Positions 7,601-42,016 of a DNA stretch of 46,034 bases are shown here, piece after piece. Source of the DNA: Nannocystaceae bacterium (GTDB lineage Bacteria > Myxococcota_A > Polyangia > Nannocystales > Nannocystaceae). A program made the translations under genes and the position numbers. Positions within the stretch are counted from its first letter, which is position 1, and every line of letters starts with the position of its first letter. The DNA is taken from positions 1-46,034 of the forward strand of contig JAXLYC010000019.1 of the NCBI GenBank assembly GCA_046351635.1, given 5' to 3'. The notes under the pieces were generated by a model that worked only from the letters and a program-made list of their open reading frames with translations, was not told the DNA's origin and did not search any database.

Positions 7601-10332
7601 GCGCATCGTCGCCGCTGGTGGTGGTCTCACCGCGGCAACGCTTGACCCGCTCGGGCACGTCGACCATGACGTCGTCGGGGCCGCGCTTGGATCGCATGCG
7701 CGACAGCTCGAGCGTGTAGGCCTGCACCCGTCGCTGCTTGCCGTCGCGATCGACCGCGCGCAGGGTCCAGCTGCTGCCGTCGCTACGCTCGGTCGCCTTG
7801 ATCGCGAGATACTGCGAGGGATACACGAACCACGTCGCGGTCGCGCCGACCTCCTCGAAGCTGGCGTCTTGCACCGCGACGTCGATGCTGCAGGTAGTCG
7901 CCCGCGCAGCAGCCGGTCGACACCGCGTACGCACCGTGCCGTCGCCCTCGATCACCGCCTCGCCCGTGAGCGTGCGCGACCACGCCTCGTCCGGATCGGA
8001 CACCGCGGAGCCATCGACCAGTCGTCGTCGAGCCCCGGCAGGCGCACGCGACGCTGGCTGCAGATGTTGGCGCGGGCGCCGATGCCGTGCACGTGGCCAC
8101 CGAAGTAGAAGCTCGCGTGGGTCACGATCTCGGCCGGCTCGCCGCGCACGCGCGCGTCCGCCAGCGCCGCGGCGCGGACCTCGAACTGCGGCGGCCTCGT
8201 CGCGCAGCTCGAAGCGGGCTGAAGCGATGGCCGTCGATGACGGCGACGGCGTCGGCCATGCCCAGCGACGCCGTCGGCAGCAGGCGCAGGCGACCCCAGT
8301 ACTTGCCGTGGGCCGTGATCGCGACGTTGCGCTGCGCGACCGTCGCCGCGGCCGTCCGAGCTGCAGCACGACCTTGGTACCGGGCTTGGGCCGCGCGAAG
8401 GCCGTGCTCGGTGGTCGGGGTGCTGATCGCGGCCCAGCCCACCATCGAGACCGTCTCGCCCGGCAGGTAGATCGCGCGCTCGGTCGCGACGTCGCTGCGC
8501 AGCTCGTCGTGGGACACCGCCTCGGTCGGGGTCGCCAGCGCGACCAGGGTGCGGTCGTCGCCCTTGCGCACCAGCACCGACGCGCCCGCGGGTAGCACGC
8601 CCTCGCGCGGCAGCTGGGCGAAGCCGTCGTCGCCGGTGCGCAGTCGCTGCGTGCGCTTGCCGGCGGCGTCGATCACCTCGATCTGCGCGCTGGCGACCGG
8701 CGTCAGGTCCTCGAGCCGTCGCACCTGCAAGCGCGAGGTGCCCGGCGAAAGCCACGCGGCCAGGCCCAGATCGGTGACCTGGAACAGCCCGCGCGTGGGC
8801 GTGGGGCCGGGGCGGCCGCGGGCCTCGTCCATCACCGTGCCGGGCACGATCTCGACGAACAGCGGCCGACTCTTGCCGCCGGCGAGCGACGCGACGTCGA
8901 GTGCGATCGAGGACCACGCGAAGCGTCCGCTGGGTCCGAGATCGAGCTTGCGCTCGAGCGCATGTTCGGGGTGCTTGGGGAACGGCACCGAGGCGAGATC
9001 GCCGTGCTGCATCGCGACCCACTCGCTGTCGCTGGGCACCGCCGCGCGCAGGGTCGCGTCGTGCAGCCACCGCGACTCGAGCCCGACGGTGGTCGCGAGG
9101 CCGGGCCGCAGGGTGCCGCGGCTGCCGACCAGCTCGATCGACGGCGGTGGTGACACGAACACGACCTCTCGCGGTCGCTCGCCCGACAAGGCCTGGCCCA
9201 CGCGATCGCGCAAGTTGGCGGGGAACGTCACGCGGTAGCTCCGCAGCTCGAACTCGCCGTAGAGCGTGACCGCGCTGTCGCCCCAGGCCTCGCGGCGGAA
9301 GTGCTTGGGCCGCGGGCTGAGATCGATGCGCTCGAGGTCCTTCTCGGCGAACGGTGCGTCGAACTGCAGCGTCACGCCCATCGGGCCGCAACCGTCGCCG
9401 TGATCCTCCATGCACTGCACGCGCGCGCGCGGCCCCTCGGAGACCAGGAATCGCGCGACCGCGGGCTTGCCCAGGGCGCCGGCGCCTGCGGGTGCGAAGC
9501 GCTCGTCGAGCACGACCTCGACCTCGTGGCCCGCGGGCCAGCGGGTCGCGGGGTGCACGTGCAGGCGCCCGAGCTCGGGCGGATCGAGATCGACCGGCAG
9601 CGGGTGGCGCTGGTGTTCGCCGAGCACCCGCACCGGCACCGGCACCGCGGTCTTCGGATCGGCGCCGCGCTTCCACGCCCGCGCGCGCACGTGACCGCGC
9701 AGCGCCGCGGCGGTCGTGGGCAGCTCGACGCGCACGTCGACCGCGGCCTTGTGGTGCACCGTCGGCAGCGTCGACGCGGTGACCTCGCCGTCGTCGGCGG
9801 TGTCGTCGAGCGGTTGTCCCCACTGCCACGACGAGACCGGCTCGAGCTCGGCCCACGGCGCGCGGGTCTGCAGCGCCCACGACTCGTCGATGGTGATGAC
9901 CGTGCCGTCGTCCCGTTGCAGCTGCCCCTTCGCGCGCACGCGGTAGCTGCGACCCAGCGCCAGGGGTTCGCTGGGCACGAACCACGCGCGGTACGGATCG
10001 ACCCACACCGTCGCGCCCTCGACATGCGGTTCGAGCTCGAATCGCAGCGCATCCACCTGCGGACGCATCGGCCGGCTGAAGTGCACGTACGGCTGCGCCG
10101 ACTCCGACACCGGCGTGCCCGCGCGGGGTCCCACCGCTGCGACCTCGGCCGGCGCGCCGACCAGCTCCGGATCGCGCTTGGGTGCGTGACCGGCGGGATC
10201 GACCGTCGCGATCACCTCCGCTGCGGGCGGCCCCGCCGGCGCCTCGGGCACCAGCGCCCGCGAGGGGCCGTGGCACGCCGCCAGGGTCGTGAGGGCGAGG
10301 ACACCGTGGAGCTTGCGACGCGCGAAAGGCAT
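4623..10332 (-). pseudogene. Alpha-2-macroglobulin family lipoprotein gene disrupted by at least four frame changes
   Basis: N-terminus MPFARRKLHGVLALTTLAACHG (lipobox) starts at the ATG at 10332. The thioester motif YPYGCVEQTSS lies in the 3' part. Protein-like sequence moves between frames: the frame of ORF 8122..10473 down to about 8200; the frame of 7952..10567 to about 8040; the frame of 7131..8369 to about 7370; the frame of 6115..7524 to about 6990; then the frame of 4623..6998 to the stop. Confidence 0.75.
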
Positions 10333-12479: not shown

Positions 12480-12735
12480 TTCCTGTCCGTGGTCGACGTG
12501 GTCGACGCCAGGCCGGGGCACCCGCGGGGCCGCTCCGGGCGCTCCGGGCCATCGGGCTGCTAGCGTCGGCAGCGTCGGCAACATCGCCCACGACGAACGC
12601 CTGGTTCAGGGCCCCGATGACAAGTCGCAGCCGTTAGATGTCTTGGGCTGCTGCTCGCCCACGTCCTGGCCCCCGTCCGGTGTCCGGTCGTCATGGGTCG
12701 TCGGTCGTCGTCGGTCGTCGTCGATCTGTCCCGAG
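12480..12735. repeat. Cluster of five short (7-12 bp) head-to-tail tandem duplications in non-coding DNA
   Basis: Read directly: gtggtcgac-gtggtcgac, gctccgggc-gctccgggc, agcgtcggc-agcgtcggc, gtccggt-gtccggt, and (ggtcgtcgtc) three times, all within about 250 bp. Confidence 0.5.
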
Positions 12736-13981
12736 CAACCTCTGCGGTTCGCTCTGCTGCCCAACATATCAGGCATTCAGCGGCGGGAGCATCAGGCGTA
12801 GCTCGATGAGCCGTCCCGTTACAACGGCTTGTTGGGCGGGCCCCCCGAAGACGTGGCGTCATATCCGGCGCGGTTGGACTTCAAAGCTGCGGCTTTTAGA
12901 TTTTCAGCCTGGGACCATCTGCCGGTACACGGACCATGTAGCAGAAACAGCTCTTCTCAAGTAGAGTGGGGGTCTTGAGGCCGCTCGGTCAATGGGCTCA
13001 AGTACGTCGATACCGGAACTCCACAAGCCTGTGCAGATAGAACACAGCGTACTTCTGTTTTTGTAGTGGCGAGCACCGCCTTCGTAGCGAGCGTCTCCGT
13101 TTCCGTGATCGCCGTCCCGTCGTCTGCTGTATGCGAAATCGATCCCGCGTCTGCCTTTCAGCATGGCGCCGTGTTCCACCGTCGTCTTTCGCGATGCGGT
13201 CCATCTGTGGTGGCGGCGAATGATCTCGCTGCCGACGAGGCGGTCCCAGTCGGCGAGCGGCTCTCCCCCTCGCGCGGCGCGCTTTCCGTCACAATGTCGA
13301 GATTGTAGTAGCGTGACTGCTTCGCGAATCTTGTGAGAAGCATGACCATGTTCTTCACGATTTCGTCATCAGGCGTGGCGTCTGCTCCAAGTCCGCGGAC
13401 CTCGTTTATCTCTCGCCTTATTCAGCAGGTTGTCGACATCGTGGCCCAGATCGCGGAGATATCTGTTGTCAGGGGTCTTCCATGCGTTCGATAGTAGTCG
13501 AGAACGACGATCAGCTTAAGAGAATGCGTTCAACCCGATCGTGAACGCGAATGACCGAGCGAAAAAATGCGCCTTTGTCGCCGAACGTATAGCGACGAAT
13601 GGAGTCGAACCCGTAGCAATATTGCTTGCGAAAGGATAGAATCGCCTCGAGTAGGAGGGGCCTCGATACGCTTCCATTAGCGCCTCCTCTGGGTTTCGTT
13701 TCGAGAACCGGCTCAGGCGCGCGTTATCGATTATTCGCACCAGACGTCGCACGCTTCATCCTTCCGGAGGTTGAGTAGCTTTGCGGATGTGAATCCCCAG
13801 CGCGCTCCCTCGACAAACACGTGCTGTCCCCCTCTTCCCAGCCAAGGCACCAGGTTCTCGCCTGGAACATATCCAGTGATCACCGAGGCCTCTCATCCGC
13901 GATACCGTGTTCAATCGGGTACTCGCTTGGGGACGCGTCTGTGGCCGGGCCGCGTGCAGCAGAGCCGCGCCGATTCTCCAG

Positions 13982-14446
13982 TCAACGGGGATAATAAGTT
14001 ACTTCGTGCTCCGCGCAAGGAGTGAAAAATGCGAGGCGGTCGGGGTTTGCGACAGCGTTTGGACTTCGTCGCAAGTTCTCGTAGAAGTCGGCACAGCTTT
14101 CGAAGCTGCTGCGACAGGAATTCGAGACCGGGTGTCGTCGAGAACAAAGACGCAATAGGCTGTTGGCCGCGGTGAAGCGAAAAGTGCTCGCTATGTGCGG
14201 TGTAGCGAGCTGCACACTGAGAGCGTGTTCGGAGCAGGTGTCCGCGAGTAGTTGCCCGTTCTCTCGCGCCATCCAGCAGGACCACTGGGGGCGTGCTTCA
14301 ACATCGGGCTGCGTCGCTCTTGCGGCGCCTTCCGAAGTTGCCATCGCGCCTGCGCGCTCGACTCGTAGGGACGCCTCGTCAGGTGCACCGCCACACGAAG
14401 CGAAGAGTCCTGATTCCACCGATGGCAACGACGCGCAGGGGCCCAT
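13982..14446 (-). CDS. Longest ORF inside the low-GC island (154 aa), hypothetical; may be a relic
   Basis: The composition is not Arg-rich (...RENGQLLADTCSEHALSVQLATPHIASTFRFTAANSLLRLCSRRHPVSNSCRSSFESCADFYENLRR...), but I recognise no motif. Confidence 0.2.
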   Translation of the reverse strand: MGPCASLPSVESGLFASCGGAPDEASLRVERAGAMATSEGAARATQPDVEARPQWSCWMARENGQLLADTCSEHALSVQLATPHIASTFRFTAANSLLRLCSRRHPVSNSCRSSFESCADFYENLRRSPNAVANPDRLAFFTPCAEHEVTYYPR

Positions 14447-15084
14447 GAGCAGGCTTGAGCCCAGCGCTGCTTGCCGCGTTCGATGTCGTCGCGGAGGTCA
14501 TCTTCACGCTCGCGCCTCTCAGCAGAACTCCAGGGGCGCTCCAGTGATCGCGGATACGGAGGCGACAAAGGCGACGGATCTGCTCGTCGTCGAGCTTGGA
14601 CAAGATGGGAAAATCGGTGGCGTTCCCGGCAGGCCCAGCGCCTGGGACCTCGACCCGAACGACGTTGAGGGGTAGCGCCCGTCTTCGACGCCCACGCCCA
14701 GTTCTTCGCGGGGTCCGTCTTGTGCTGCACCCACGCGCGCCAGGCCGTCAGGCCCTTGGCCTCACTCGACGTACTTCTGCCCATTGTGTCCGTGCTGAAT
14801 CGGTATCCACCGCATCAGGCTGCGCCTCGCGCCCATCGTAATTCGGCCAGACCCGCCCAGGCGCGCTTCTTCAGCAACGACCCAGCCTTTCGCGACCGTG
14901 CCAACACCCCTCACCACGATTCCACCGAGATCCCGGCCTTGCACCCCAAGCCCCCCGACTTTCCCCCGACCGCGTTATCCTGCAAGCTCGCTGCGTTTGT
15001 CCTTTCGGGCAACACTGCGAGCCGAGTTCGCGGGCTCGAGGCGTTCGGCGAATCGGCAGGTGTCCGGGCATGCGTGGCCGGCGA

Positions 15085-15215
15085 ACGGCTGGGAGTCGCG
15101 GTATCGCCCATGTTCGCACGCCTGCCAGCGCGCGGTTGAGCACGTGGGTGTAGACCATCGTGGTGTTCACGTCGCGCGTCTCCATCAGGCGCGCCCATGC
15201 GCCGGCGAAGCGCTC
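15085..15215 (-). pseudogene. 3'-terminal remnant of a tyrosine recombinase gene with the integron-integrase-type C-terminal box (catalytic Tyr)
   Basis: The minus-strand translation ERFAGAWARLMETRDVNTTMVYTHVLNRALAGVRTWAIPRLPAV matches the IntI-family C-terminus (LLGHSDVSTTMIYTHVLxxGGxGVRSPLDxLP). Only about 45 residues are present. Upstream of it, the minus strand is occupied by the cupin gene in another frame. Confidence 0.55.
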
Positions 15216-15244
15216 GCCTTCGCCCGCTCCCACCCCCGCAGCCG

Positions 15245-15730
15245 TCAGCGCGACTCGGGAAACCCGCTGCCATCCTTGCGGGTGAACAGCGCGCGTCCGT
15301 CGGGCCCCTTGCGGTACGCGAGGTCGACGTCGGGATACTCCGCGCCGTCCTCGAGGTCGCGGTTGCTGATCTCGAGGTAGCGCGCGTCCCGATCGCTGCG
15401 GTTGATCAGCTGATGCCCGTCGCGCGAGCCCGCGGCGAAGCCCGCACACATGCCCGCGGTCAGGATCTGCTCGCCGGCGTCGGTCACGAGCACGACCTCG
15501 CCCTCGAGCACGTAGACCAGCTCGTCCTCGCGCGTGTGCCAGTGACGCATCGCCGACTCCTTGCCCGGCGGCAGCGTGGTCAGGTTCACGCCGATCTTGG
15601 TCAGGCCCAGCGCGTCGCCCAGCGCCCGCTTCTCGCGCGGCAGCACGCGCGAACGATAGGGCTCGGGATAACCAGAGCCGGTGCGAGGGGACAGCGTCGC
15701 GGGGTCGAGTGCGGGGAGCAGCAGTGCCAT
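15245..15730 (-). CDS. Cupin-domain protein
   Basis: MALLLPALDP... with a cupin-2 core (GVNLTTLPPGKESAMRHWHTREDELVYVLEGEVVLVTDAGEQILTAGMCAGFAAG). ATG at 15730 and TGA at 15245-15247, both confirmed. Confidence 0.75.
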   Translation of the reverse strand: MALLLPALDPATLSPRTGSGYPEPYRSRVLPREKRALGDALGLTKIGVNLTTLPPGKESAMRHWHTREDELVYVLEGEVVLVTDAGEQILTAGMCAGFAAGSRDGHQLINRSDRDARYLEISNRDLEDGAEYPDVDLAYRKGPDGRALFTRKDGSGFPESR

Positions 15731-26750: not shown

Positions 26751-26934
26751 GGCGACCTCCAGAGGTCGCGCGAGCGCGGCGAAACGGCTCACGGGCCCGC
26801 ACGGGTGTGGGGCCACGGTGCGTGCCCCGACCCGCGCCCGTGCGCGGTCGCGCGGGTGGCGAGCTGACACACCCCGCGCGCGGTATCGTCGAGCCTGCGC
26901 CGCCCCGCGGCACCGGGCAGCGCAGGCCCGACGC

Positions 26935-28019
26935 ATGAGACTCGATCCCACCCTCGCGCTCCCGTTCGCCGTGGCACTGGCGTGCCACGCACCGACCACC
27001 TCGCCCGGCAGCGCGCCCGCGGTCGCGCAGGATTCCGCGACGCGGCTGCAGGTGCGGGTCGATCCGCGCGTCGAGCTGTTCTCGATGCTGTGGCGCACCG
27101 CTGGCATCCCGCCCTACGCGCCGCAGGACGAGCATCGCACGCCCTACGAAGCGGCGGTCGACGCTCGCATGGCGCCGCTGCGGTCGCACCCCGCGGTGCA
27201 GCAGGCCGAGGCGCTGGCCGAGTCCAAGGGCATCGGCTTCGACGCGCCGATGAGCCTCGCGGTCACCTGAGCTGGCCCGAGCTCGAGCTCGTGCGTCCGC
27301 TGCAGCCCTGGCCAGCATCGCTCGACGACCGCTGGCAGGGGGTCGACATGGACGCGTGGCTCAGCACGGTGCGTTCGTTCGCGAGCGACGCGCGGCTGGC
27401 CGAGTTCTTCGGCGAGCAACGGCCGTTGTGGGACCGCGTCGACGCGACGATGGCGGCGTTCGTGCAGGCGCACGGTGCCGACGCGCCCCAGTGGCTGCAC
27501 GAGTTCAGCGGCACCGCGATCGCACAGACGGTGCTGGTCCAGGGCCTGCTCACCGAGCGCGGCAACTACGGCCCGCACGTCGTGCTGCCCGACGGGCGCA
27601 AGACCGCATACCAGATCATCGTGAACTGGCACCCCGACGAGGACGGCGTGCCACGGCCACAGCCCGATCTCGCGGTGTTCTACATCCACGAACTCGCGCA
27701 CAGCTACATGAACCCGCTGGTCGAGCGCCACGCGTCGATCCTGCAAGCCTCGGCGCAGGCGCTGTACGACCGACATGCCGCGGCGATGGAGGCAGTGGGC
27801 TACGGCGAGTGGTACTCGGTCGCGTGCGAGTCGTTGGTGCGCGCCGCGACCCGCACCTACCTGCACGATGATCCCGAGGCGGCCGCCGGCGCGGACGAGA
27901 ACGACCGCCTGCAAGGCTTCGCGTGGGTCCCCGAGGTTGCCGCCGTGCTCGAGCCACCACTCGACGAGACCGACATGACCGCGGTCGCACAGGTGCTCGC
28001 GCGCCACGGCGCGCCGTGA
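26935..28019 (+). CDS. HExxH-motif lipoprotein (possible zinc-dependent hydrolase), apparently frameshifted near 27265
   Basis: MRLDPTLALPFAVALACHAP lipobox in the frame of ORF 26743. That frame ends ...GFDAPMSLAVT*, and the protein continues in the frame of ORF 26982 (LSWPELELVRPLQPW...YIHELAHSYMNPL...). The junction is at cggtcacctgagctgg. Confidence 0.6.
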
Positions 28020-32958: not shown

Positions 32959-34473
32959 GTGAACGCATCCCTGGGCACGCTGTGGCTCGGCGCGCTGGTC
33001 TCGTTCGCGCTCGTCGCGGGCGCGATGCCGCTGGTGCTGCGGGCGTGGCGGTCGCTCGGTCGTCGCGACGACGAGGTCAGCCTGCGCAAGGTCCACACCG
33101 GCCAGATCCCGCGCGCCGGCGGCCTGGTCATCCTGTTCGGCTTCGGCGTGATGCTGGTCGCCGGCCTCGCCGGCGTCAGCTCGCTGTCCGCGACCCACGA
33201 GCTGTTCTCGGTCTCGCCGCTGACCGGCGCGCTGGTCGGCGCGCTCGTGGTCGGACTCACCGGCGCGTGGGATGATCTCATCGGCCTGCGGCCGCGGACC
33301 AAGCTCGCGATGCAGCTGGTCGGCGCGACGCTCGCGGTGCTCTACGGCCTGCACTGGCCCGCGCTCGAGTTGCTCGTGGGCTGGGAGTACAACTGGCTCG
33401 CGACGCTGCTGACCATCGGCTTTCTGGTCGCGTCGGTGAACGCGGTCAACATGATGGACGGGCTCGACGGGCTCGCCGCGGGCATCTGCCTGGTGGGCTT
33501 CGGCACCGTGGTCGCGGCGATCTTCGCCGGCCCGACCCTGGTCCCGGGCACGCTCGCGGTCGGCTGGGCCGCGGCCTGTGCCCTGGGTGCCACCGGCGGC
33601 TTCCTGCTGCACAACCGCCACCCCGCGCGCGTGTTCATGGGCGACGCGGGCAGCTACTTCCTGGGCTTCCTGCTGCCGGCGCTGCTGGTCCAGGTGGGCC
33701 CGGTGCGCTGGCGCGTGCCGGAGATCCAGCTGTCGATCGCGATCCTGCCGCTGGCGGTGCCGATGTTCGACATGACGCTCGCGATCGTGCGCCGGACCCT
33801 GCGGGGCCAGCCGATCTTCAGCGGCGACTCCGACCACGTGCACCACCGGCTGATGGCCGCGGGCTTCACCCACGCGCGCGCGGTGACCGTGCTGTGGCTG
33901 TCGGCGGCGATGTTCGGATCGCTCGCCTACCTCAACGTCATCGGCATCGGTGGATGGTGGACGCTGCTGGGCACCCTGGTCGCGATGGTGCTGGCCGCGG
34001 TGCTGCTGGGCTACCACCGCATGCTGGCGCAGCTGCCCGCGTTCACCGGCGAGCGCTTCCTGGGCTGGCGGGATCGTCGCCGCGAGGTGATGGAACTGCT
34101 CGACACGCTCGAGCACGTGCGACTGTCGGGCAACGACCGCGGCGAGGTCCGCTGGCGCCGGGTCGCGCCCGACCTCGCGCTGGTGCTGGGACGCCTGGGC
34201 ATCCCCGCGTTCCAGATCCGCCGCTTCGACGACGTCGTGGTCGGCAGCGGCGACGCGCGCGATGCCTGGGCGTGGCTGAGCCTGCCGGTGCCGGGCGAGG
34301 ACGGGGCCGAGCTGCGACTGGCGCTGGCGGTGCGGCTGCCCGAGCTGCAGCAGGAGCGCCTGATGCTGATCGAGCGCGCCGTGCTGGCGGTCGCCGGCGA
34401 CGGCGGTGCCGCGGCGCGTCAGCTGACGGTCGTGCGCGGCGGCGGCGAGCGTCCCTCGGCCGCCGCGCCCTGA
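32959..34473 (+). CDS. UDP-HexNAc:undecaprenyl-phosphate HexNAc-1-phosphate transferase (WecA/MraY GT4 family) with a C-terminal extension of about 170 aa
   Basis: GTG at 32959. RKVHTGQIPRAGGLVILFGFGV aligns with WecA. Has the NAVNMMDGLDGLAAG and VFMGDAGSYFLG motifs. Protein-like sequence continues about 170 aa past the last transmembrane helix. Divergent from the dehydrogenase gene across a 141 bp intergenic region. Confidence 0.8.
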   Translation: MNASLGTLWLGALVSFALVAGAMPLVLRAWRSLGRRDDEVSLRKVHTGQIPRAGGLVILFGFGVMLVAGLAGVSSLSATHELFSVSPLTGALVGALVVGLTGAWDDLIGLRPRTKLAMQLVGATLAVLYGLHWPALELLVGWEYNWLATLLTIGFLVASVNAVNMMDGLDGLAAGICLVGFGTVVAAIFAGPTLVPGTLAVGWAAACALGATGGFLLHNRHPARVFMGDAGSYFLGFLLPALLVQVGPVRWRVPEIQLSIAILPLAVPMFDMTLAIVRRTLRGQPIFSGDSDHVHHRLMAAGFTHARAVTVLWLSAAMFGSLAYLNVIGIGGWWTLLGTLVAMVLAAVLLGYHRMLAQLPAFTGERFLGWRDRRREVMELLDTLEHVRLSGNDRGEVRWRRVAPDLALVLGRLGIPAFQIRRFDDVVVGSGDARDAWAWLSLPVPGEDGAELRLALAVRLPELQQERLMLIERAVLAVAGDGGAAARQLTVVRGGGERPSAAAP

Positions 34474-34480
34474 GCCGGCA

Positions 34481-36070
34481 TCACTGCGACCGCGGCGGCG
34501 CGGTGCGAGGCGGCCGCGCGGCCGCGGCGTTGCGGCTCGCGACCACGCGCGGCATCGGTCCGGTCACGTGGACGTCGAAGTCGTCGCCCTTGCGCGTGAC
34601 CACCGCGTGGGTCGGCGCGCGCGCCGGTGTCAGGCCCAGCAGCGGCGCAAGCGACTCGAGCCCGCGCAGCTGCGACAGCATCTCGCCCTCGATCGCGAAC
34701 GCGGCCGAAAGCAGATCCTCGGTGGTCTTGCTGCCCGGGGTCGCGCCCTTGGTCTGCTCGAGCCACTCGCCCAGGGCCTCGTTGGCCGAGGGCCCGACCG
34801 CGACCACGACCGCGCCGGCGTGCTCGCTGCCGGCGAACGCGATGCGTAGCGCACCCTCGTCGTCGATGAGCGGCGCGAGCTCCGGCGGCAGCAGCTTGCG
34901 TGCGTTGTCGACCGCGATCACGTGGATCGACACGCCCGCCGCGGTCGAGCGGTTGCGCTTGAACCGCAGCTTGGGCACCGACACGCCGAAGGTGCGCGCG
35001 AGATCGAGGTTGCCCAGCACCGCGTCGATGAGGCTGCCGACCGCGCCGCTGGCCTTCTTGGGATCGTCGGCGCCCAGCGCCAGCAACACGTGGCGCTTGG
35101 GGCCCAGGCCCACCAGCACGCGGCCGTTCCAGCTGCGCAGCACCGCGTTGTAGCGCTTGAGCATGTCCTCGAGCACGCCCTTGACCAGGAAGTTCTGCTT
35201 GTCGACCGTGCGCGTGGCCTGGCCGATGAGATCCTTCACCACGGTCTGGTACTTGGCGTAGCGCGAGCTCGCGGCCGCGACGATCGACGGCGATGCCAGC
35301 AGCCCCGTGAGCGCGCCCTCGGTGAAGTCGGACAGCTGCGCGATGGGGCCGTCGCCGTCGGCGGTGATGCGGAAGTCGGTCACGTCCTCGCCGACCAGGC
35401 CGATGCGCTGGAACGGGAACGAGGGCACGCCCTTGCGCACCTCGGCGCCGTCGAGCGTCAGATACAGCCCGTGCTTGCCGTAGGCGCGGCCGAGCTCGCG
35501 CGCGGTCGCGAGGCCGCGCTCGTCGCTCGCGAGCGCGAGCGTGGCGTTGGCGGTGTCGAGCCACGCGAGCTTGGGTGGCGGCGGCGTCATCTCGATGGCC
35601 TCGCGCGGCAGCTCGACCGCGCCGAACTTGCCCACCGCCTTCTTGCCGCGCAGCAGTGCCTGGACCTCGGCCAACCGCACGCGCTCGATCGGCACCTGCA
35701 CCACCAGCTGACCTTCGACCAGCGCCGCGCTCCACGGCCGCGCCAGATCGAGGTCGTCGACCAGCTGACGCTCGAACGAAAGACCGACGGCGCCGAGCAG
35801 CTCGCGCAGCACCGCGCGGGGATCGTTGCCCAGGCCCAACGTCTGGCCCAACGCCGCCAGCGCAGGCGCAGGCGCGGCGACGTGGCTCGCGAACGCCGGC
35901 TTGGCCGCCAGGCTGTAGGGCCGCGGCATCGACGGGGGCGGCGGCGCCTCGCGCTGCCGACCGTGCACACCGCCGGTGCCCGGGGTCGTCGCGCCGGGCT
36001 TGGGATCGTGCTTGCACGCCACCGGGGCGAGCAGGAGGAGCGAGAGCAGCAACCGCGGCGAGCGTCGCAT
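34481..36070 (-). CDS. Hypothetical lipoprotein
   Basis: MRRSPRLLLSLLLLAPVACKHD lipobox. 529 aa with balanced composition. ATG at 36070 confirmed. Confidence 0.6.
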   Translation of the reverse strand: MRRSPRLLLSLLLLAPVACKHDPKPGATTPGTGGVHGRQREAPPPPSMPRPYSLAAKPAFASHVAAPAPALAALGQTLGLGNDPRAVLRELLGAVGLSFERQLVDDLDLARPWSAALVEGQLVVQVPIERVRLAEVQALLRGKKAVGKFGAVELPREAIEMTPPPPKLAWLDTANATLALASDERGLATARELGRAYGKHGLYLTLDGAEVRKGVPSFPFQRIGLVGEDVTDFRITADGDGPIAQLSDFTEGALTGLLASPSIVAAASSRYAKYQTVVKDLIGQATRTVDKQNFLVKGVLEDMLKRYNAVLRSWNGRVLVGLGPKRHVLLALGADDPKKASGAVGSLIDAVLGNLDLARTFGVSVPKLRFKRNRSTAAGVSIHVIAVDNARKLLPPELAPLIDDEGALRIAFAGSEHAGAVVVAVGPSANEALGEWLEQTKGATPGSKTTEDLLSAAFAIEGEMLSQLRGLESLAPLLGLTPARAPTHAVVTRKGDDFDVHVTGPMPRVVASRNAAAARPPRTAPPRSQ

Positions 36071-37154: not shown

Positions 37155-37901
37155 TCAGCTGCGCCGCGCGGCGGCGGCCTCGAGCGCGGGGCGGAACTTC
37201 GCGATCGCGTCGCCGATCACGGGCGCGCCGTGGGCCGGCAGTACGTGGGTGAACGGCAGCCGCAACACCGCGAGCAGATCTTCGGCCGGCGGCTTGCACT
37301 GCGACAGCCACCCCGGCCCGACGTTGTGCGGCTTGATGAAGCCGAACCTGCGCATCATCAGCGCACCCAACCAGCTGAAGAACTCGTCGCGTTGGGCCCA
37401 GTTCTGCAGCGCATCTCCGGCGATGACGACGCCGTCGTGACGCTCGAGCAAGAGCAGCGCCTCGGGCGGCGTCGAGCGGAACATGTGCACGCTCGCACCA
37501 CGCAGCGGCAGCTTCGTGCTGGCGTCGAAGCGCTGGTCGGGCTCGAAGTACGGCGGCGCCTTGGGCGAAAAGCCGGGCATGTACGGCGCGTCGACCGGCG
37601 CCCATACCCGCGCGCCGTAGTGCTGCTTGTAGAAGGGATCATCGGCGCCGTGGTTGCCCGCGAGGCGGATGACGTCGGTGACCTTGCCCAGGCGATCGAG
37701 CGCGGCCAGGCCGTCGGGATCGAGCCGCACGCTGTTGACCAGCACCAGCCGCTCGCCCTCGCGCACGATCGTCATCGCGCGGCTGAAGCGGACCGGCAGC
37801 GGCCCCGGCATCGCCGCGGTGCCGGTCACGAACCACAGATCGGGCAGGACCTCGGTCAGGACACCGTGCGGACGTGCGGGCGGGTGCGGGCGTGGCTTCA
37901 C
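37155..37901 (-). CDS. Hypothetical protein (possible metallo-hydrolase fold); start uncertain
   Basis: 248-aa ORF with a GTG at 37901 and non-degenerate composition (VIRLAGNHGADDPFYKQHYGARVWAPVD...). Confidence 0.45.
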   Translation of the reverse strand: MKPRPHPPARPHGVLTEVLPDLWFVTGTAAMPGPLPVRFSRAMTIVREGERLVLVNSVRLDPDGLAALDRLGKVTDVIRLAGNHGADDPFYKQHYGARVWAPVDAPYMPGFSPKAPPYFEPDQRFDASTKLPLRGASVHMFRSTPPEALLLLERHDGVVIAGDALQNWAQRDEFFSWLGALMMRRFGFIKPHNVGPGWLSQCKPPAEDLLAVLRLPFTHVLPAHGAPVIGDAIAKFRPALEAAAARRS

Positions 37902-37985
37902 CCCGCTGGCGTAGCAAGCGTCGGCGCCGAGGGCCAGATGACAGATCGGCCATTGTCGGGGGTGATTTCCGCCAGCGGACGGCGC

Positions 37986-39161
37986 TCAGCCGGCGGTGCG
38001 CCAGCGCTGCGCGACGATGGTGCTGGCCTTGCGGTCGGGATCGTCGCCGGGCCCCGCGAGCAGCCACGCGGTCTCGCCGTCGATCCACAGCGGCCGCAAC
38101 CACTGCAGCCCCGGCGGCGGCGCGATGGCGTGCTGCTCGCCGTCCGAGACGGCCGTGATCACGGCGCGCTCGGCATCGTCGATCGTGAGCACGCGACCGT
38201 CGTCCGCGACCATGCCCCAGCCGCCGTGGCCGATCCGATCCGGCAGCGGGCCGACCGCGCCGCGGCGCCCCCTCGCCCACCGGCGCGAGCCACAACGTCG
38301 CGTCGCGGTACCACGCGGCCGAATCGAGCTGGGCATCGACCCGCACGATCGCGCCGGCGCTGCGATCGATCGCGACCTCGGCGAGCTCGCCGAGCGGCCG
38401 CATGCAGGGCGAGCCGCGTGATGTCGCGCGCACAGCGACGTGCGGCGATCGAGCGCCTGCAGCAGCGCGCCGCGGGGCAGCGCGCGCGGCCGCGTGGCAC
38501 CGGCGGCGATGGGCACCAGCCCGCCGTCGGGATCGACCGCGACCACGCCCGACGCCTCGAGCTCGACCCCAGCTCTGGCCGTCGCCGACCGCGAGGACCT
38601 GCGTCGCCAGCTCCGGCAGCGACACCCGCTCGAGCGCGCCGTCGCCCCACGGTCGCCGCAACAGCACGTCCTGGGTCGCACCAGCGGCCGCGCGATCGCC
38701 GCGACGCCGCGATCACCGGTCGCGACGCGCACGGCACAGCCGTCGGGCGCGGCCGGGTCGGCGCGCAGACCGCCGCACCGCGCAGCGCTGACCACGTGGG
38801 TCCAGCCCTGCAGCGCGCTGGCTCGAGTCGCCCTCGTGGCGCATGTATGTCGTAGCGGCGCGCCTGCCGGTACGACGCGTCGGCCCCGTGCACCGACAAG
38901 GTGTTGCGCACGTCGCGCGCTCGACCACGTCGCAGGCTGCTCGCAGCCGTCGCCGCAGCCGATCCACGACGGCGCGCAAGCTCGCTCGGGCTCGGCCACG
39001 ACCGTGGGCTTCGCCGCAGCCGCTGCGGGCACGCGAGTTCAGGCCCGGCCCGCCCGCACCGGCGCGCCGCCAGGCACGGACTCGGGTTGCGGCGTCGCGC
39101 GCCACGTCGGCGCGCTCGACCACGCCGCGGGTGCGGTGCACGCCGCCAACAGCACCCACAT
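37986..39161 (-). pseudogene. Lipoprotein gene (signal MWVLLAAC) fragmented across all three frames, with at least four frame changes
   Basis: The ATG at 39161 gives MWVLLAACTAPAAW.... Protein-like segments lie in the frames of ORF 37986..39032 (AGVELEASGVVAVDPDGGLVPIAAGATRPRALP; GPLPDRIGHGGWGMVADDGRVLTIDDAERAVITAVSDGEQHAIAPPPGLQWLRPLWIDGETAWLLAG...*) and ORF 37639..38667 (LLRRPWGDGALERVSLPELATQVLAVGDGQ; RPLGELAEVAIDRSAGAIVRVDAQLDSAAWYRDATLWLAPVGEGA), in alternation. Confidence 0.4.
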
Positions 39162-39176
39162 GATCGCGAGCCCGCG

Positions 39177-41931
39177 TCAGAACGCGGCCTCCATCGCGCG
39201 GATGTGGAAGCTCCTGCTCGCCGACCGCGACGCGGTGCGCCGCGGGTGCCGACTGCGGCATCGCGCCGATCCAGTACACGCCGTGGCTGGTCGCGTGGGC
39301 CGGCGAGGCCAGCATGTCCTGCGCGTGCTCCTGCGCCCACAGGTGCACGCCGCTCTCGTCGAAGCTCAGCACCGACACGACCACGTGCCACGGCGCCGAC
39401 GACGTCACCACCAGCTCGCCGCGCGGGCCGATGGTCAGCGCGAGCGACTCGAACGCATGGGCATCGGGCCAGGCGCCGACGATCTCGACCGTGCGACCGC
39501 GGGGGAAGCGGAGGATCCGCGCGCCGAACTGCCCGCCGTTGCGCTCGATGGCGTAGTACGCGTCGTCGTGGGCGTTGTAGGCCAACGCCAGCACCTGCTC
39601 GGGTCGCACGTCGCCGATGAAGCGCTCGTACTCGGTCGCGCCGGTGTCGAGATCGATGGTGCGCAACATCGGCTGGCCCTGCACGTCGCGCTCGAACACC
39701 GCGAGCTCCTGGCGGCGGGCCGACATCGCCGCGACCACCGGCGCTTGCGTCGGCACCTGCGGCTCGCTGTACGGCGCAGGCTCGACGTGGACCAGGCCGT
39801 CGCCGCGCACGACGAACATGAGCCGGCCGCCGATGTCGAAGAACGCTCCGATCGCGCCGCCGTGGGCGGCACCCGCGGCATCGCCGGCGAACACCGGCAC
39901 CATCGCCGGGTCGCGCAGTTGCATGACCAGCTCGTGGTCGATGACGTCGCCGCCGCCGCGCACACCGCCCTCGCCGGCCAGCAACAGCACCTCGTCGCCG
40001 CCCATGGGATCGTGGGGGATGCCGGTGAACCAGCCGTCGTCGGCGTCGGTGCAGTCGGAGCACGGCAGGTCGAACGGATCGACGTAGGGATCGACAAGCG
40101 GGACCTTGAACCACGGGATGGTGTCGCACGGCAGCGGCAGCGACGGCGTCGCGACCTCGTCGACCGTGATGCGTGCGAAGTTCTGGCGGCGCCGCTGCTC
40201 CGCCTCGGTGCCGGTGACGGTGCCGGGCGAAGGCGGCGAGCCCACGCTGTTCCAGTGGGTCGCGACCCAGGCCCACGCGAGGCCGTCGAAGACCCCGTAG
40301 GCGGCGCCGGGCATCACCGGGGCGAGGGAGAGATCGGCCCAGTAGTTCCAGCCCAACCGCCGCGGCGTGGGCGAGATCGGCGTGGTGGTCTTGGTCAGCG
40401 ACGGGTGCGTGGTCGCCAGGCGACCGCTGCCGTCGGTCACGATGGTGCCGGTCGCCAGATCCGTCAGCGTCATCGACCGCCAGCCCCAGGGCATGCCGAC
40501 ACTGTCGCGGTTGCAGCCGTAGCTGAGCGCGCACACGCTGGGATCGCTCGAGGCGCACGAGCACGTCATCATGCGCGTGATGCCGTCCTGGTCGGCGCCG
40601 GTGCCCACGAACGACTCCGCGACGATCACGTTGCCGTACGAGACGCCGCAGTCACCCGCCGAGGGCCAGCCGCCGCAGATGGGCTCGCGCGAGAACTCGC
40701 AGGGGATGCGGCGACCGTCGGGGCGGGTGTCGTCGAAGCGATCGTAGCTCGCGGTCAGACGGGTCTGCGGGTACGGATCGCAGACGTCGCCGGGGAAGTA
40801 GGTCTCGAGGTAGACGTCGTCGCGCGGCGGCTCGACGCCGCCGAGGAAGGCCTTGGCGTAGGCCTCGCGCTCCGCGGGCTGGTTGCTGTTGTGCTGGTCG
40901 GGGTTGGCGATGAGGCGGCAGTTGTCGCAGTGGTCACCGCGCCAGTCGCCGTCGCTGTTGACCTGCGTCGGATTGAACACGTCGGGGCAGTTGTCACAGT
41001 CGGCGCCGACGAGGTCGCCGTCCGGATCGGCGCCGCCGCACTCGCCCTCCCAGGTGCCGGACTTGGACGACCACGCGGTGTCGTAGATGAAGTCGTGGTT
41101 GTCGGGTGCGTCGGTCTGGGCCCAGTAGCTGTGGTATTCGGACGCGCCCGACGCGACGCCGCACACCAGCGGCGGGCTGGTCTTGTTGAACAGCGGTCCG
41201 CCCGAGTCGCCGCGCAGGGTGCCGCGGTAATCGTCGAACAAGAACGAGGTCTCGCAAAGACTGTCCTCGCAATCGATGTCGCTCTCGTACGCCTGTCGCG
41301 TGGTCGCACGCTCGCCGGGCTTGTCGAGTCGTCCCCAGCCGGTGTAGCGGCCCGAGAACTCGTCGGGGCAGGTCATGCCCGGCTCCCAGGCGTGCACCGG
41401 CACGATGTTCCACAGCCCCGGGCCGGTGCCGATGGGCATGCGTCGATCGAGCTCGAGCACCGCGATGTCGCGACCCATGAGCTCCGGCGTCCACGAGACG
41501 GTGTCGCGCAGCCAGCCGCGGATCGCGGTTGCGGTATGCGTCGGGTGCTCGGACGTGTACAGCCCGACGCCGATGCTGATCGGCTTGGAGCCCTTGGCCA
41601 CCGCCCACTTCGTTCCGTACGGACTCGTGGTCTCCGGCGGGCCCCACAAGCCCGGCTTGCCGTCCTCGCCCGCGGTGAGGCAGTGGTTGGCGGTCAGCAC
41701 CCGCGTCGGCGTGATGAGTGTGCCGGTGCACAAGGCGTCTGCCGCGTTGGTCAGCCGCACCGATGCGTTCGACTGCGGCGTGGCGACGTCGTCCCAGCCG
41801 TGGCGGATCCGCGGGTGCTCGCCGGCATCGCGCGGCTGCTCGTCCGCGGCGCAACCGAGCGTGGCGACGAGCGCCGCCGCGCTCGCGCGACAGTAGCGAA
41901 GGCGAGGATGGGATCGAACGGACGGACGCAT
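39177..41931 (-). CDS. Trypsin-like (S1) serine protease lipoprotein with thrombospondin type-3 Ca-binding repeats; 3' end unresolved
   Basis: MRPSVRSHPRLRYCRASAAALVATLGCAADE lipobox. Catalytic triad context TANHC, DIAVLELD, GDSGGPLF. TSP3 repeats (DPDGDLVGADCDNCPDVFNPTQVNSDGDWRGDHCDNCRLIANPDQ). About 500 aa of further domain. Protein-like translation in this frame ends near 39200, with no stop in frame until 38713, so a frame change is needed to reach the TGA at 39177-39179. Confidence 0.7.
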
Positions 41932-42016
41932 CGCGGGCTCCTGGTCGGGCCGGCGCGATGCCGGCTCCACCGGACTGACCCGCTGGGGTTCGATCCGTCT
42001 CGCGGAAAAGCGCGCG

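What the first reader, a model, noticed from the sequence alone, without database searches (positions are those of the whole stretch)
37986..39200. Frameshift hotspot: about 1.2 kb in which coding sense alternates among all three frames
Downstream of the S1 protease, a lipoprotein gene (start MWVLLAAC at 39161) has protein-like segments switching frame at least four times in about 1.1 kb. The protease itself seems to need a shift to reach a stop. This indel density is far above the rest of the window. It may be a degraded gene pair, a hypervariable region, or an assembly collapse over a repeat.
Basis: seen in the sequence. Interest (0 to 1): 0.5.

Follow-up and report, generated by a model that had tools for sequence, protein, structure and literature searches.

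The report
Garbled 950-base patch, likely assembly error
The frame-hopping is real in this sequence, but a nearly identical genome of the same species carries two clean genes here, so the 950-base patch of small insertions and deletions is most likely a local sequencing or assembly error and not biology.

Summary
On the minus strand, the gene after the S1 protease can only be read by changing frame at least 8 times. It has also lost its start codon and carries an in-frame TGA. The protease has a 1-base insertion 30 bases before its true stop.

The window comes from an NCBI metagenome-assembled genome (MAG) of a Nannocystaceae bacterium. A second genome of the same species, GCA_964505145.1, is about 99.7% identical in the flanks. 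It has an intact 917-aa protease and an intact 401-aa gene. Over 30.9 kb compared, 25 of the 27 indels lie in 949 bases (39209-38261), P about 5e-36.

Within that patch:
- Substitutions are ten times denser than outside.
- They are spread evenly over codon positions.
- Nearly all sit within 11 bases of an indel.
- Almost all changes are unique to the window, and four other assemblies carry the intact alleles wherever they overlap.

No repeat lies under the patch. Elsewhere the window has single-base homopolymer deletions and a second gene that also changes frame.

The best reading is an uncorrected noisy-consensus patch (confidence 0.78). A real, oddly mutated pseudogene is not excluded without the reads. 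Interest is low.

The parts
39177..41931 (-). S1 (trypsin-family) serine protease gene with thrombospondin type 3-like repeats, in its ancestral extent. It starts at ATG 41931 and ends at the ancestral stop TGA 39179-39177. That stop is reached only if the extra T at 39209/39208 is removed.
   Evidence: Pfam Trypsin PF00089, E = 1.3e-12. Weak NCBIfam match to a thrombospondin type 3 repeat model, below cut-off. Orthologs of 916 and 917 aa end at this TGA.
38713..39176 (-). Spurious read-through tail of the protease ORF. Out-of-frame reading begins at the inserted T (39209); the stretch given here is the part beyond the ancestral stop. The deposited protein MFO0634603.1 is 1072 aa, 155 aa longer than the 917-aa ortholog.
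   Evidence: ORF 38713..41970. The exact 1072-aa product is in NCBI. The tail overlaps the next gene in the wrong frame.
39208..39209 (-). One-base insertion (T becomes TT; GAGC-TCGAC becomes GAGCTTCCAC), with a neighbouring G>C at 39206. It shifts the last 10 codons of the protease.
   Evidence: Absent from L014, L001 and the Logan contig L016. Coordinates.
39176..39177 (-). Site of a 2-base deletion (TGATGCGC becomes TGACGC). It removes the TG of the ATG start codon of the downstream gene, which overlaps the protease stop in the orthologs.
   Evidence: L014, L001 and L016 all read TGATG. The called genes overlap by one base in L001 and L014.
37986..39176 (-). Disrupted gene for a predicted beta-propeller lipoprotein, the conserved partner of the protease. 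It is 401 aa in the same-species genome and 395 aa in P0001.
   Evidence: P0001 aligns end to end with 8 frame changes. Synteny in L001 and L014. Structure model of P0001 has pLDDT 87 and gives generic propeller hits.
38261..39209 (.). The error patch. In 949 bases (77% GC) there are 25 indels (14 deletions, 11 insertions, 1-7 nt) and 29 substitutions relative to GCA_964505145.1.
   Evidence: In the three-way polarisation, 44 of 47 indel columns and 28 of 38 substitution columns are unique to the window.
39039..39041 (-). In-frame TGA in the frame that carries the lipoprotein N-terminus. It results from C>T at 39041 combined with the +1 insertion at 39051.
37986..38213 (-). The only piece of the partner gene annotated in the deposited MAG: a 75-aa 'hypothetical protein', MFO0634602.1 (U0168_17300). 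It is the undamaged C-terminal end of the gene.
   Evidence: Exact look-up. This stretch is identical to L014 apart from one substitution at 37995.
37155..37901 (-). Next gene downstream: a 248-aa hypothetical protein (MFO0634601.1), intact. It marks the clean flank.
   Evidence: There are no indels against L014 from 38260 down to 31191.

Best explanation
The frame changes come from a local patch of uncorrected, noisy consensus sequence in this metagenome-assembled genome. They are not a property of the organism.

The true locus is a two-gene module. The first gene is a 917-aa secreted S1 protease. The second is a ~400-aa beta-propeller lipoprotein whose ATG overlaps the protease stop (TGATG). 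In the deposited contig about 950 bases spanning the junction carry roughly 5.7% error (54 events). Half of the events are small indels, as expected from one or a few error-prone long reads, or from a stretch that polishing could not reach. The flanks are accurate.

What is shown:
- The changes are unique to the window.
- The changes are confined to one short patch.
- The composition of the changes looks like noise.
- The orthologs are intact.

What is inferred: the cause, such as a long-read gap fill, a coverage drop or failed polishing in a 77% GC stretch. I could not see the reads or the assembly method.
For: 1. A same-species genome (GCA_964505145.1; loci L014, L018, L019) is about 99.7% identical outside the patch (99.2-99.7% over the whole aligned stretches) across window 15170-46034. 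It has clean 917-aa and 401-aa ORFs.

2. Of 27 indels in 30,865 bases, 25 lie in 949 bases, P = 5e-36. Substitutions are at 3.1% inside and 0.30% outside, Fisher P = 1e-17.

3. With L001 (87% identical) as outgroup, 44 of 47 indel columns and 28 of 38 substitution columns in the patch are unique to the window. In the flanks the split is 9 window-unique to 10 L014-unique, with no indels.

4. Independent short-read contigs from other samples carry the intact alleles at every site they cover. L016 (SRR14234090) covers 39209, 39206, 39176 and 39160. L017 (SRR23702531) covers 38261.

5. The indel-to-substitution ratio is about 1:1. Of 29 substitutions, 26 lie within 11 nt of an indel. They fall evenly on codon positions (11/8/10) and 20 of 29 are nonsynonymous. 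In the flanks 27 of 42 are at third positions and 28 are synonymous against 14 nonsynonymous, Fisher P = 0.004.

6. The same assembly shows other marks of indel error:
- GGGG to GGG at 15231, where three other assemblies (L019, L021, L024) agree against the window.
- CC to C at 27264, splitting a DUF4932 gene.
- A second run of frame changes in the alpha-2-macroglobulin gene at about 8400-7000.

7. Long-read indel errors are known to break reading frames and to survive polishing (PMC6487183, PMC12007338, PMC9262707).
Against: - No reads, coverage or assembly method were available, so the cause is inferred.
- Several indels are 2-7 nt and about half are not in homopolymers or dinucleotide runs. 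That is more than the residual errors of a well-polished assembly and requires near-raw read quality over the patch.
- The rest of the compared sequence is very accurate, so a special local cause must be assumed.
- Another part of the window at 78% GC (34150-34600) is clean, so GC content alone does not explain the patch.
- Six substitution columns in the patch are shared by the window and L001 against L014, more than the flank rate predicts. This could mean the patch comes from a slightly different strain.
- A JGI contig (L015) has a junction at 38244, 17 nt from the patch edge. This may point to real structural variation at this locus.
Confidence: 0.78

Rival explanations
1. This is a real, strain-specific pseudogene. 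In this population the propeller lipoprotein gene was inactivated and has decayed, and the same decay clipped the protease tail.
For: - Substitutions in the patch show no codon-position bias and are mostly nonsynonymous, as in unconstrained DNA.
- The start codon is lost and there is an in-frame stop.
- About half of the indels are of the slippage type in G runs or GC dinucleotide runs, which replication can also produce.
- The JGI contig L015 breaks at 38244, which may mean the gene is variable in nature.
Against: - The flanks differ from the intact genome by only 0.3%, with 9 window-unique substitutions in 6.5 kb. Neutral decay over that time predicts a handful of substitutions and fewer than one indel in 949 bases, not 28 and 25.
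- A 1:1 indel-to-substitution ratio is far from the substitution-dominated pattern that I know of for bacterial pseudogenes (my own knowledge, not tested here).
- The damage stops abruptly at 38261, while the last 270 bases of the same gene are essentially identical to the intact copy. A pseudogene should decay along its whole length.
- The patch also crosses into the protease gene.
Confidence: 0.12
2. The stretch was imported by recombination or gene conversion from a diverged, already decayed copy, either a paralog elsewhere in the genome or another lineage.
For: - The boundaries are sharp and the flanks are near-identical.
- Six substitution columns in the patch have the window agreeing with L001 against L014, more than the flanks predict.
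Against: - Between the indels the sequence is L014-like for long perfect runs, so the donor would have to be about 97% identical in bases yet carry 25 indels. That is again an unnatural ratio.
- No second copy is found in the window.
- None was found in the public genome or metagenome scans, which returned only orthologs at 40% identity or less, plus L001.
Confidence: 0.04
3. This is a localized burst of error-prone DNA synthesis, for example mutagenic break repair. It would have produced a real cluster of frameshifts in one event or a few.
For: The mutations are tightly clustered in under 1 kb with sharp edges. To my knowledge (not tested here), Myxococcota encode error-prone polymerases.
Against: - I know of no bacterial process that gives about 5.7% change, half of it indels of 1-7 nt, over 950 bases.
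- The other isolated homopolymer deletions and the second frame-shifted gene in the same contig point to a property of the assembly, not of the locus.
Confidence: 0.03
4. The gene is expressed through programmed recoding, that is, ribosomal frameshifting.
For: Protein-like sense continues across each frame change.
Against: - The orthologs encode the same protein in a single frame.
- 23 separate non-3n indels, a lost start codon and an in-frame stop cannot be serviced by any known recoding signal.
Confidence: 0.01

Closest known systems
Gene-fragmenting indel errors in long-read or hybrid assemblies (false pseudogenes)
   Same: - The differences from a near-identical reference are dominated by indels.
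- There are homopolymer deletions elsewhere in the contig.
- Genes are split or over-extended in the annotation: a 1072-aa protease and a 75-aa stub.
- The effect on gene calling matches that described in PMC6487183 and PMC12007338, and the homopolymer indels match PMC9262707.
   Different: Such errors are usually scattered at a low rate. Here 25 are packed into 949 bases next to flanks that are almost error-free. This implies a stretch of near-raw read quality (a gap fill, a coverage drop or failed polishing), not ordinary residual error. The sequencing platform of this MAG is unknown to me.
Genuine bacterial pseudogenes (frameshift and nonsense decay)
   Same: The start codon is lost, there are multiple frameshifts and an in-frame stop, and substitutions show no codon-position bias.
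   Different: The amount of damage is out of proportion to the 0.3% divergence of the flanks. Indels are as frequent as substitutions. The last quarter of the gene is untouched and the patch spills into the neighbouring gene.
Hypervariable or phase-variable loci (diversity-generating retroelements, simple-sequence contingency loci)
   Same: The differences between closely related genomes are concentrated in a short stretch of a surface-protein gene.
   Different: There is no template repeat, no adenine-specific substitution pattern and no simple-sequence tract. The other four assemblies agree with one another, so the region is not variable in the population sampled.

Membership tests
Assembly or consensus error patch | The changes are found in one assembly only, and independent assemblies of the same population carry the undamaged sequence. 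| tested here: met
   L014, L001, L016 and L017 all carry the intact alleles wherever they overlap. 44 of 47 indel columns are unique to the window.
Assembly or consensus error patch | The error spectrum is typical of noisy reads: many small indels, and substitutions clustered with indels without regard to codon position. | tested here: met
   There are 25 indels against 29 substitutions. 26 of the 29 substitutions lie within 11 nt of an indel. Codon positions are hit 11/8/10 times.
Assembly or consensus error patch | The same assembly shows similar errors elsewhere. | tested here: met
   GGGG to GGG at 15231 against three assemblies, CC to C at 27264, and an alpha-2-macroglobulin gene read in at least 3 frames.
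Assembly or consensus error patch | The reads show low coverage or do not support the consensus over the patch. | not testable with these tools
   No reads or assembly metadata were available. The source contig is not even in the DNA index.
Real pseudogene | The amount of damage is in proportion to the neutral divergence from the nearest intact ortholog. | tested here: not met
   The flanks have 0.30% substitutions and no indels in 13.9 kb. The patch has 3.1% substitutions and 25 indels in 949 bases.
Real pseudogene | The decay affects the whole released gene. | tested here: not met
   From 38260 to the stop at 37986 there is one substitution and no indel.
Assembly collapse over a repeat | Repeated sequence is present in the intact version of the locus. 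| tested here: not met
   Only short, low-identity chance repeats occur in the window (37500-39700) and in L014 (10300-12200).
Programmed ribosomal frameshifting | The frame change is conserved in orthologs, at a slippery site. | tested here: not met
   The orthologs P0001, P0002, P0020 and P0064 are single ORFs.
Diversity-generating retroelement target or phase-variable locus | A template repeat with adenine-directed substitutions, or one simple-sequence tract whose length varies. | tested here: not met
   The differences are scattered indels of 1-7 nt. There is no template repeat or tract.
Peptidase S1 (trypsin) family, for the upstream gene | Match to the Trypsin domain model above the curated cut-off. 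| tested here: met
   PF00089 scores 48.4 bits against a cut-off of 20.6. The translation contains TANHC and GDSGGP motifs.

The most novel reading that the evidence does not exclude
The patch is real. One natural Nannocystaceae population would have suffered a sharply bounded burst of indel-rich mutagenesis, about 54 changes in 949 bases, across the junction of a protease gene and its propeller-lipoprotein partner. The surrounding 30 kb stayed about 99.7% identical to a sister strain. That would be a bacterial counterpart of clustered hypermutation, with a frameshift-heavy spectrum not described before.
Probability: 0.04. Interest if true: 0.75.

Novelty: not a real feature. Interest (0 to 1): 0.1.

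Why it matters
As biology it most likely does not matter. The organism almost certainly has two ordinary genes here.

It matters as data hygiene. The deposited MAG carries a protease with a false 155-residue tail (MFO0634603.1). It also carries a 75-residue stub (MFO0634602.1) that already serves as a cluster representative in a large protein collection. At least two other genes in the same contig are broken in the same way. Pseudogene counts or gene-loss inferences drawn from this assembly would be inflated.

A by-product is the gene pair itself. A secreted S1 protease followed by a start/stop-overlapping beta-propeller lipoprotein is conserved in several Myxococcota genomes. The lipoprotein belongs to an unnamed family with about 135 cluster representatives and may deserve a description of its own.

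Tried and rejected
- **Single-frame tblastn of P0001.** This forced one frame and hid the shifts. I replaced it with my own frameshift-aware alignment.
- **Public scans for the partner protein.** The species-representative genome scan returned only L001 itself. The JGI metagenome scan returned only relatives at 40% identity or less. Neither holds the window's source.
- **Exact look-up of the window's 248-aa neighbour gene.** This failed, so the source contig and its reads could not be reached.
- **P0018.** This 53-aa member of the protease cluster, listed on a 499-kb contig, turned out to sit on a eukaryote-like contig and is irrelevant.
- **Global MAFFT alignment of 15 kb.** It timed out, so I used blastn alignments instead.
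- **First structure model.** With 4 sequences it was poor, pLDDT 51. A 40-sequence alignment gave pLDDT 87.
- **Family searches for the partner protein.** Pfam, NCBIfam and PDB sequence searches found nothing.
- **GC content as the sole cause.** Rejected, because another 78% GC stretch at 34150-34600 is clean.
- **Short-read contig break points as evidence of a hard-to-sequence region.** L016 ends near 39127, L017 starts near 38322 and L015 has a junction at 38244. I judged this too weak, because these contigs are short at both ends anyway.
Full report
**What is in the window**

The window is 72% GC. Genes can be followed by the GC content of third codon positions, which runs at about 0.95. 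On the minus strand one frame runs cleanly from about 41900 to about 39250. The phase then changes repeatedly until about 38250. After that a single frame runs to a TGA at 37988-37986.

The long ORF 41970..38713 starts as an S1 (trypsin-family) protease (Pfam PF00089, E = 1.3e-12). It continues with thrombospondin type 3-like repeats and a long C-terminal region. Below 39250 protein-like sense can only be followed by hopping between all three frames.

**Homologs show one gene read in many frames**

I spliced the protein-like pieces into a conceptual translation. It found a 395-aa hypothetical protein, P0001, from a Nannocystaceae MAG at 77% identity over 98% of the query. It also found a more distant 356-aa relative, P0002.

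P0001's locus (L001) is fully syntenic with the window. The gene order is a 916-aa trypsin-domain protein, then P0001 overlapping its stop by one base, then a 231-aa protein, an FGE-sulfatase protein and a 530-aa protein.

A frameshift-aware alignment that I wrote places P0001 end to end on window 39179-37989 at 75% identity. It needs 8 frame changes, at about 38915, 38887, 38811, 38686, 38568, 38411, 38392 and 38259, and it crosses an in-frame TGA at 39041-39039.

**Source of the window and a same-species reference**

Exact-sequence look-ups show that the window comes from an NCBI MAG labelled Nannocystaceae bacterium (locus tags U0168_172xx, contig of 114,419 bp). In that record the protease is deposited as a 1072-aa protein, MFO0634603.1. 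The only product annotated between it and the next gene is a 75-aa stub, MFO0634602.1, at 38213..37986.

The same protein clusters led to another NCBI genome, GCA_964505145.1 (contig CAZDHJ010000013.1; loci L014, L018, L019). It has a 917-aa protease, an overlapping 401-aa gene, and then neighbours of 248, 282 and 529 aa, the same lengths as in the window. Outside the patch it is about 99.7% identical to the window across window 15170-46034.

**Where the differences lie**

- Against that genome the window has 27 indels in 30,865 aligned bases, and 25 of them lie between 39209 and 38261, a span of 949 bases (binomial P = 5e-36).
- Substitutions are at 3.1% inside the patch and 0.30% outside (Fisher P = 1e-17).
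- The 25 indels are 14 deletions and 11 insertions of 1 to 7 nt. Of these, 23 are not multiples of three.
- An extra T at 39209/39208 shifts the last 10 codons of the protease, 30 nt before its true stop at 39179-39177.
- A 2-nt deletion directly after that stop turns TGATG into TGAC and removes the start codon of the partner gene.
- The remaining indels lie inside the partner gene.
- From 38260 to the stop of that gene there is one substitution and no indel.

**Whose changes are they?**

I used L001 (87% identical) as an outgroup. In the patch, 44 of 47 indel columns and 28 of 38 substitution columns are unique to the window. In 6.5 kb of flanks the substitutions split 9 window-unique to 10 unique to the other genome, with no indels.

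Two short-read contigs from other samples carry the intact alleles at every patch site they reach. L016 (SRR14234090) covers 39209, 39206, 39176 and 39160. L017 (SRR23702531) covers 38261. Four assemblies therefore agree with each other and only the window deviates.

**Character of the changes**

- Indels are as frequent as substitutions.
- Of the 29 substitutions, 26 lie within 11 nt of an indel.
- The substitutions hit codon positions 1, 2 and 3 a total of 11, 8 and 10 times, and 20 of 29 would be nonsynonymous.
- In the flanks 27 of 42 coding substitutions are at third positions, with 28 synonymous against 14 nonsynonymous (Fisher P = 0.004).
- About half of the indels extend or shorten G runs or GC dinucleotide runs. 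The rest are in no repeat.
- There is no tandem or dispersed repeat in the window or in the intact version that could cause a collapse.

**Other damage in the same contig**

- At 15231 the window has GGG where three other assemblies (L019, L021, L024) have GGGG.
- At 27264 a CC to C deletion splits a DUF4932 gene that is intact in the reference.
- The alpha-2-macroglobulin gene (about 10332 to 4623, minus strand) is read in at least three frames. The bMG3 domain is in one ORF and a homolog's middle section (P0056 residues 56-168) matches a second frame. The A2M and bMG10 domains are in a third. GC3 phase switches occur near 8300, 8020, 7390 and 7010. This part of the window has no close reference, because synteny with GCA_964505145.1 ends at 15170.

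**Interpretation**

Decay of a real pseudogene cannot easily explain these numbers. Flank divergence attributable to the window lineage is about 0.14%. That predicts a few neutral substitutions and fewer than one indel in 949 bases, not 28 and 25. A released gene should also decay along its whole length, yet its last 270 bases are pristine and the damage crosses into the protease.

Import from a diverged decayed copy would need a donor about 97% identical in bases but carrying 25 indels. No such copy was found. Programmed frameshifting is excluded by the single-frame orthologs.

The pattern is about 5.7% difference, half of it small indels, with sharp edges and accurate flanks, plus homopolymer deletions and a second broken gene in the same contig. 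This is what a stretch of near-raw long-read consensus looks like. Long-read indel errors are known to break reading frames and to persist after polishing (PMC6487183, PMC12007338, PMC9262707).

I therefore read the hotspot as an assembly artefact with confidence 0.78. The mechanism (a gap fill, a coverage drop or failed polishing in a 77% GC stretch) is inferred, because I had no reads and no assembly metadata.

Four points count against the artefact reading:
- Some indels are large (2-7 nt).
- Another stretch of similar GC content is clean.
- Six patch substitution columns are shared with the outgroup.
- A JGI contig (L015) matches the window only from 38244 downward and is unrelated sequence before that, 17 nt from the patch edge. 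This may be a chimera or a hint of real structural variation.

**What the genes are**

The intact partner protein has a lipoprotein-type N-terminus (MRGLAITWVLLAAC in the same-species genome, MRHLASVLLLSAAC in P0001). With a 40-sequence alignment it models confidently as an all-beta protein (pLDDT 87, pTM 0.84). Foldseek gives only generic beta-propeller matches at TM 0.4-0.5.

It has no Pfam, NCBIfam or PDB sequence match. A full HMMER scan finds about 135 cluster representatives.

The protease-then-propeller pair recurs in two more distant genomes, L003 and L005, at 51-53% and 37-40% identity. The overlapping TGATG in L001 and L014 suggests translational coupling. The function is unknown, and a partner role for the protease is only a guess from conserved adjacency.

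**Verdict**

There is an assembly problem, but it is not a repeat collapse and not a hypervariable region.
- The feature is most likely not real biology.
- Interest is 0.1.
- The most novel reading still open is a real, sharply bounded burst of indel-rich mutagenesis. I give it about 4%.

Noticed in passing
window 27264 (gene about 26921-28006, + strand): A 1-nt deletion (GGTCCACC to GGTCACC) relative to GCA_964505145.1 splits a DUF4932-family gene that is a single 361-aa ORF in the reference. It is an isolated homopolymer-type frameshift outside the patch.
   Followed up: yes
window 15231 (intergenic, just after the cupin gene 15730..15245): The window has GGG where three other assemblies (L019, L021, L024) have GGGG. 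This is another window-unique homopolymer deletion.
   Followed up: yes
window about 10332-4623, minus strand; frame changes near 8300, 8020, 7390 and 7010: An alpha-2-macroglobulin gene of about 1900 codons is read in at least three frames. NCBI annotates only a 791-aa C-terminal piece. This is a second run of frameshifts, but no close reference was available to count the indels.
   Followed up: partly
window 15170 and 12600-14900: Synteny with the same-species genome ends at 15170, beside the C-terminal remnant of a tyrosine recombinase (..DVNTTMVYTHVLNR..). The next 2-3 kb is 52-66% GC against 72% for the window and shows no coding-like signal. This is probably the edge of an acquired island.
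   Followed up: partly
L015 (JGI Ga0493731_048036) 1-180, junction at window 38244: This 1364-base metagenome contig matches the window only from 38244 downward. Its first 180 bases are unrelated, 62% GC, and encode a membrane-protein fragment on the other strand. It is either a chimeric contig or a real junction 17 nt from the patch edge. It explains why the 75-aa stub sequence is also found in JGI/IMG.
   Followed up: partly
window 37986-38213 and 38713-41931: The errors have propagated into databases. The 75-aa stub MFO0634602.1 is a cluster representative in both the 90% and the 50% identity protein collections. The 1072-aa protease record has a false 155-residue tail.
   Followed up: yes
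window 37902-37985 (intergenic, upstream of the 248-aa gene): The intergenic stretch GGCGGAAATCACCCCCGACAATGGCCGATC... is well conserved even in the 87%-identical species (L001), although the sequence just before it is full of large gaps. It may be a promoter or leader of the downstream gene.
   Followed up: no
L001 7251-11188; L014 8001-11959; L003 5206-9071; L005 922-4724: The S1 protease and the beta-propeller lipoprotein form a conserved pair in at least four genomes. The stop and start overlap (TGATG) in the two closest. The lipoprotein family has no name in Pfam or NCBIfam and has about 135 cluster representatives.
   Followed up: partly
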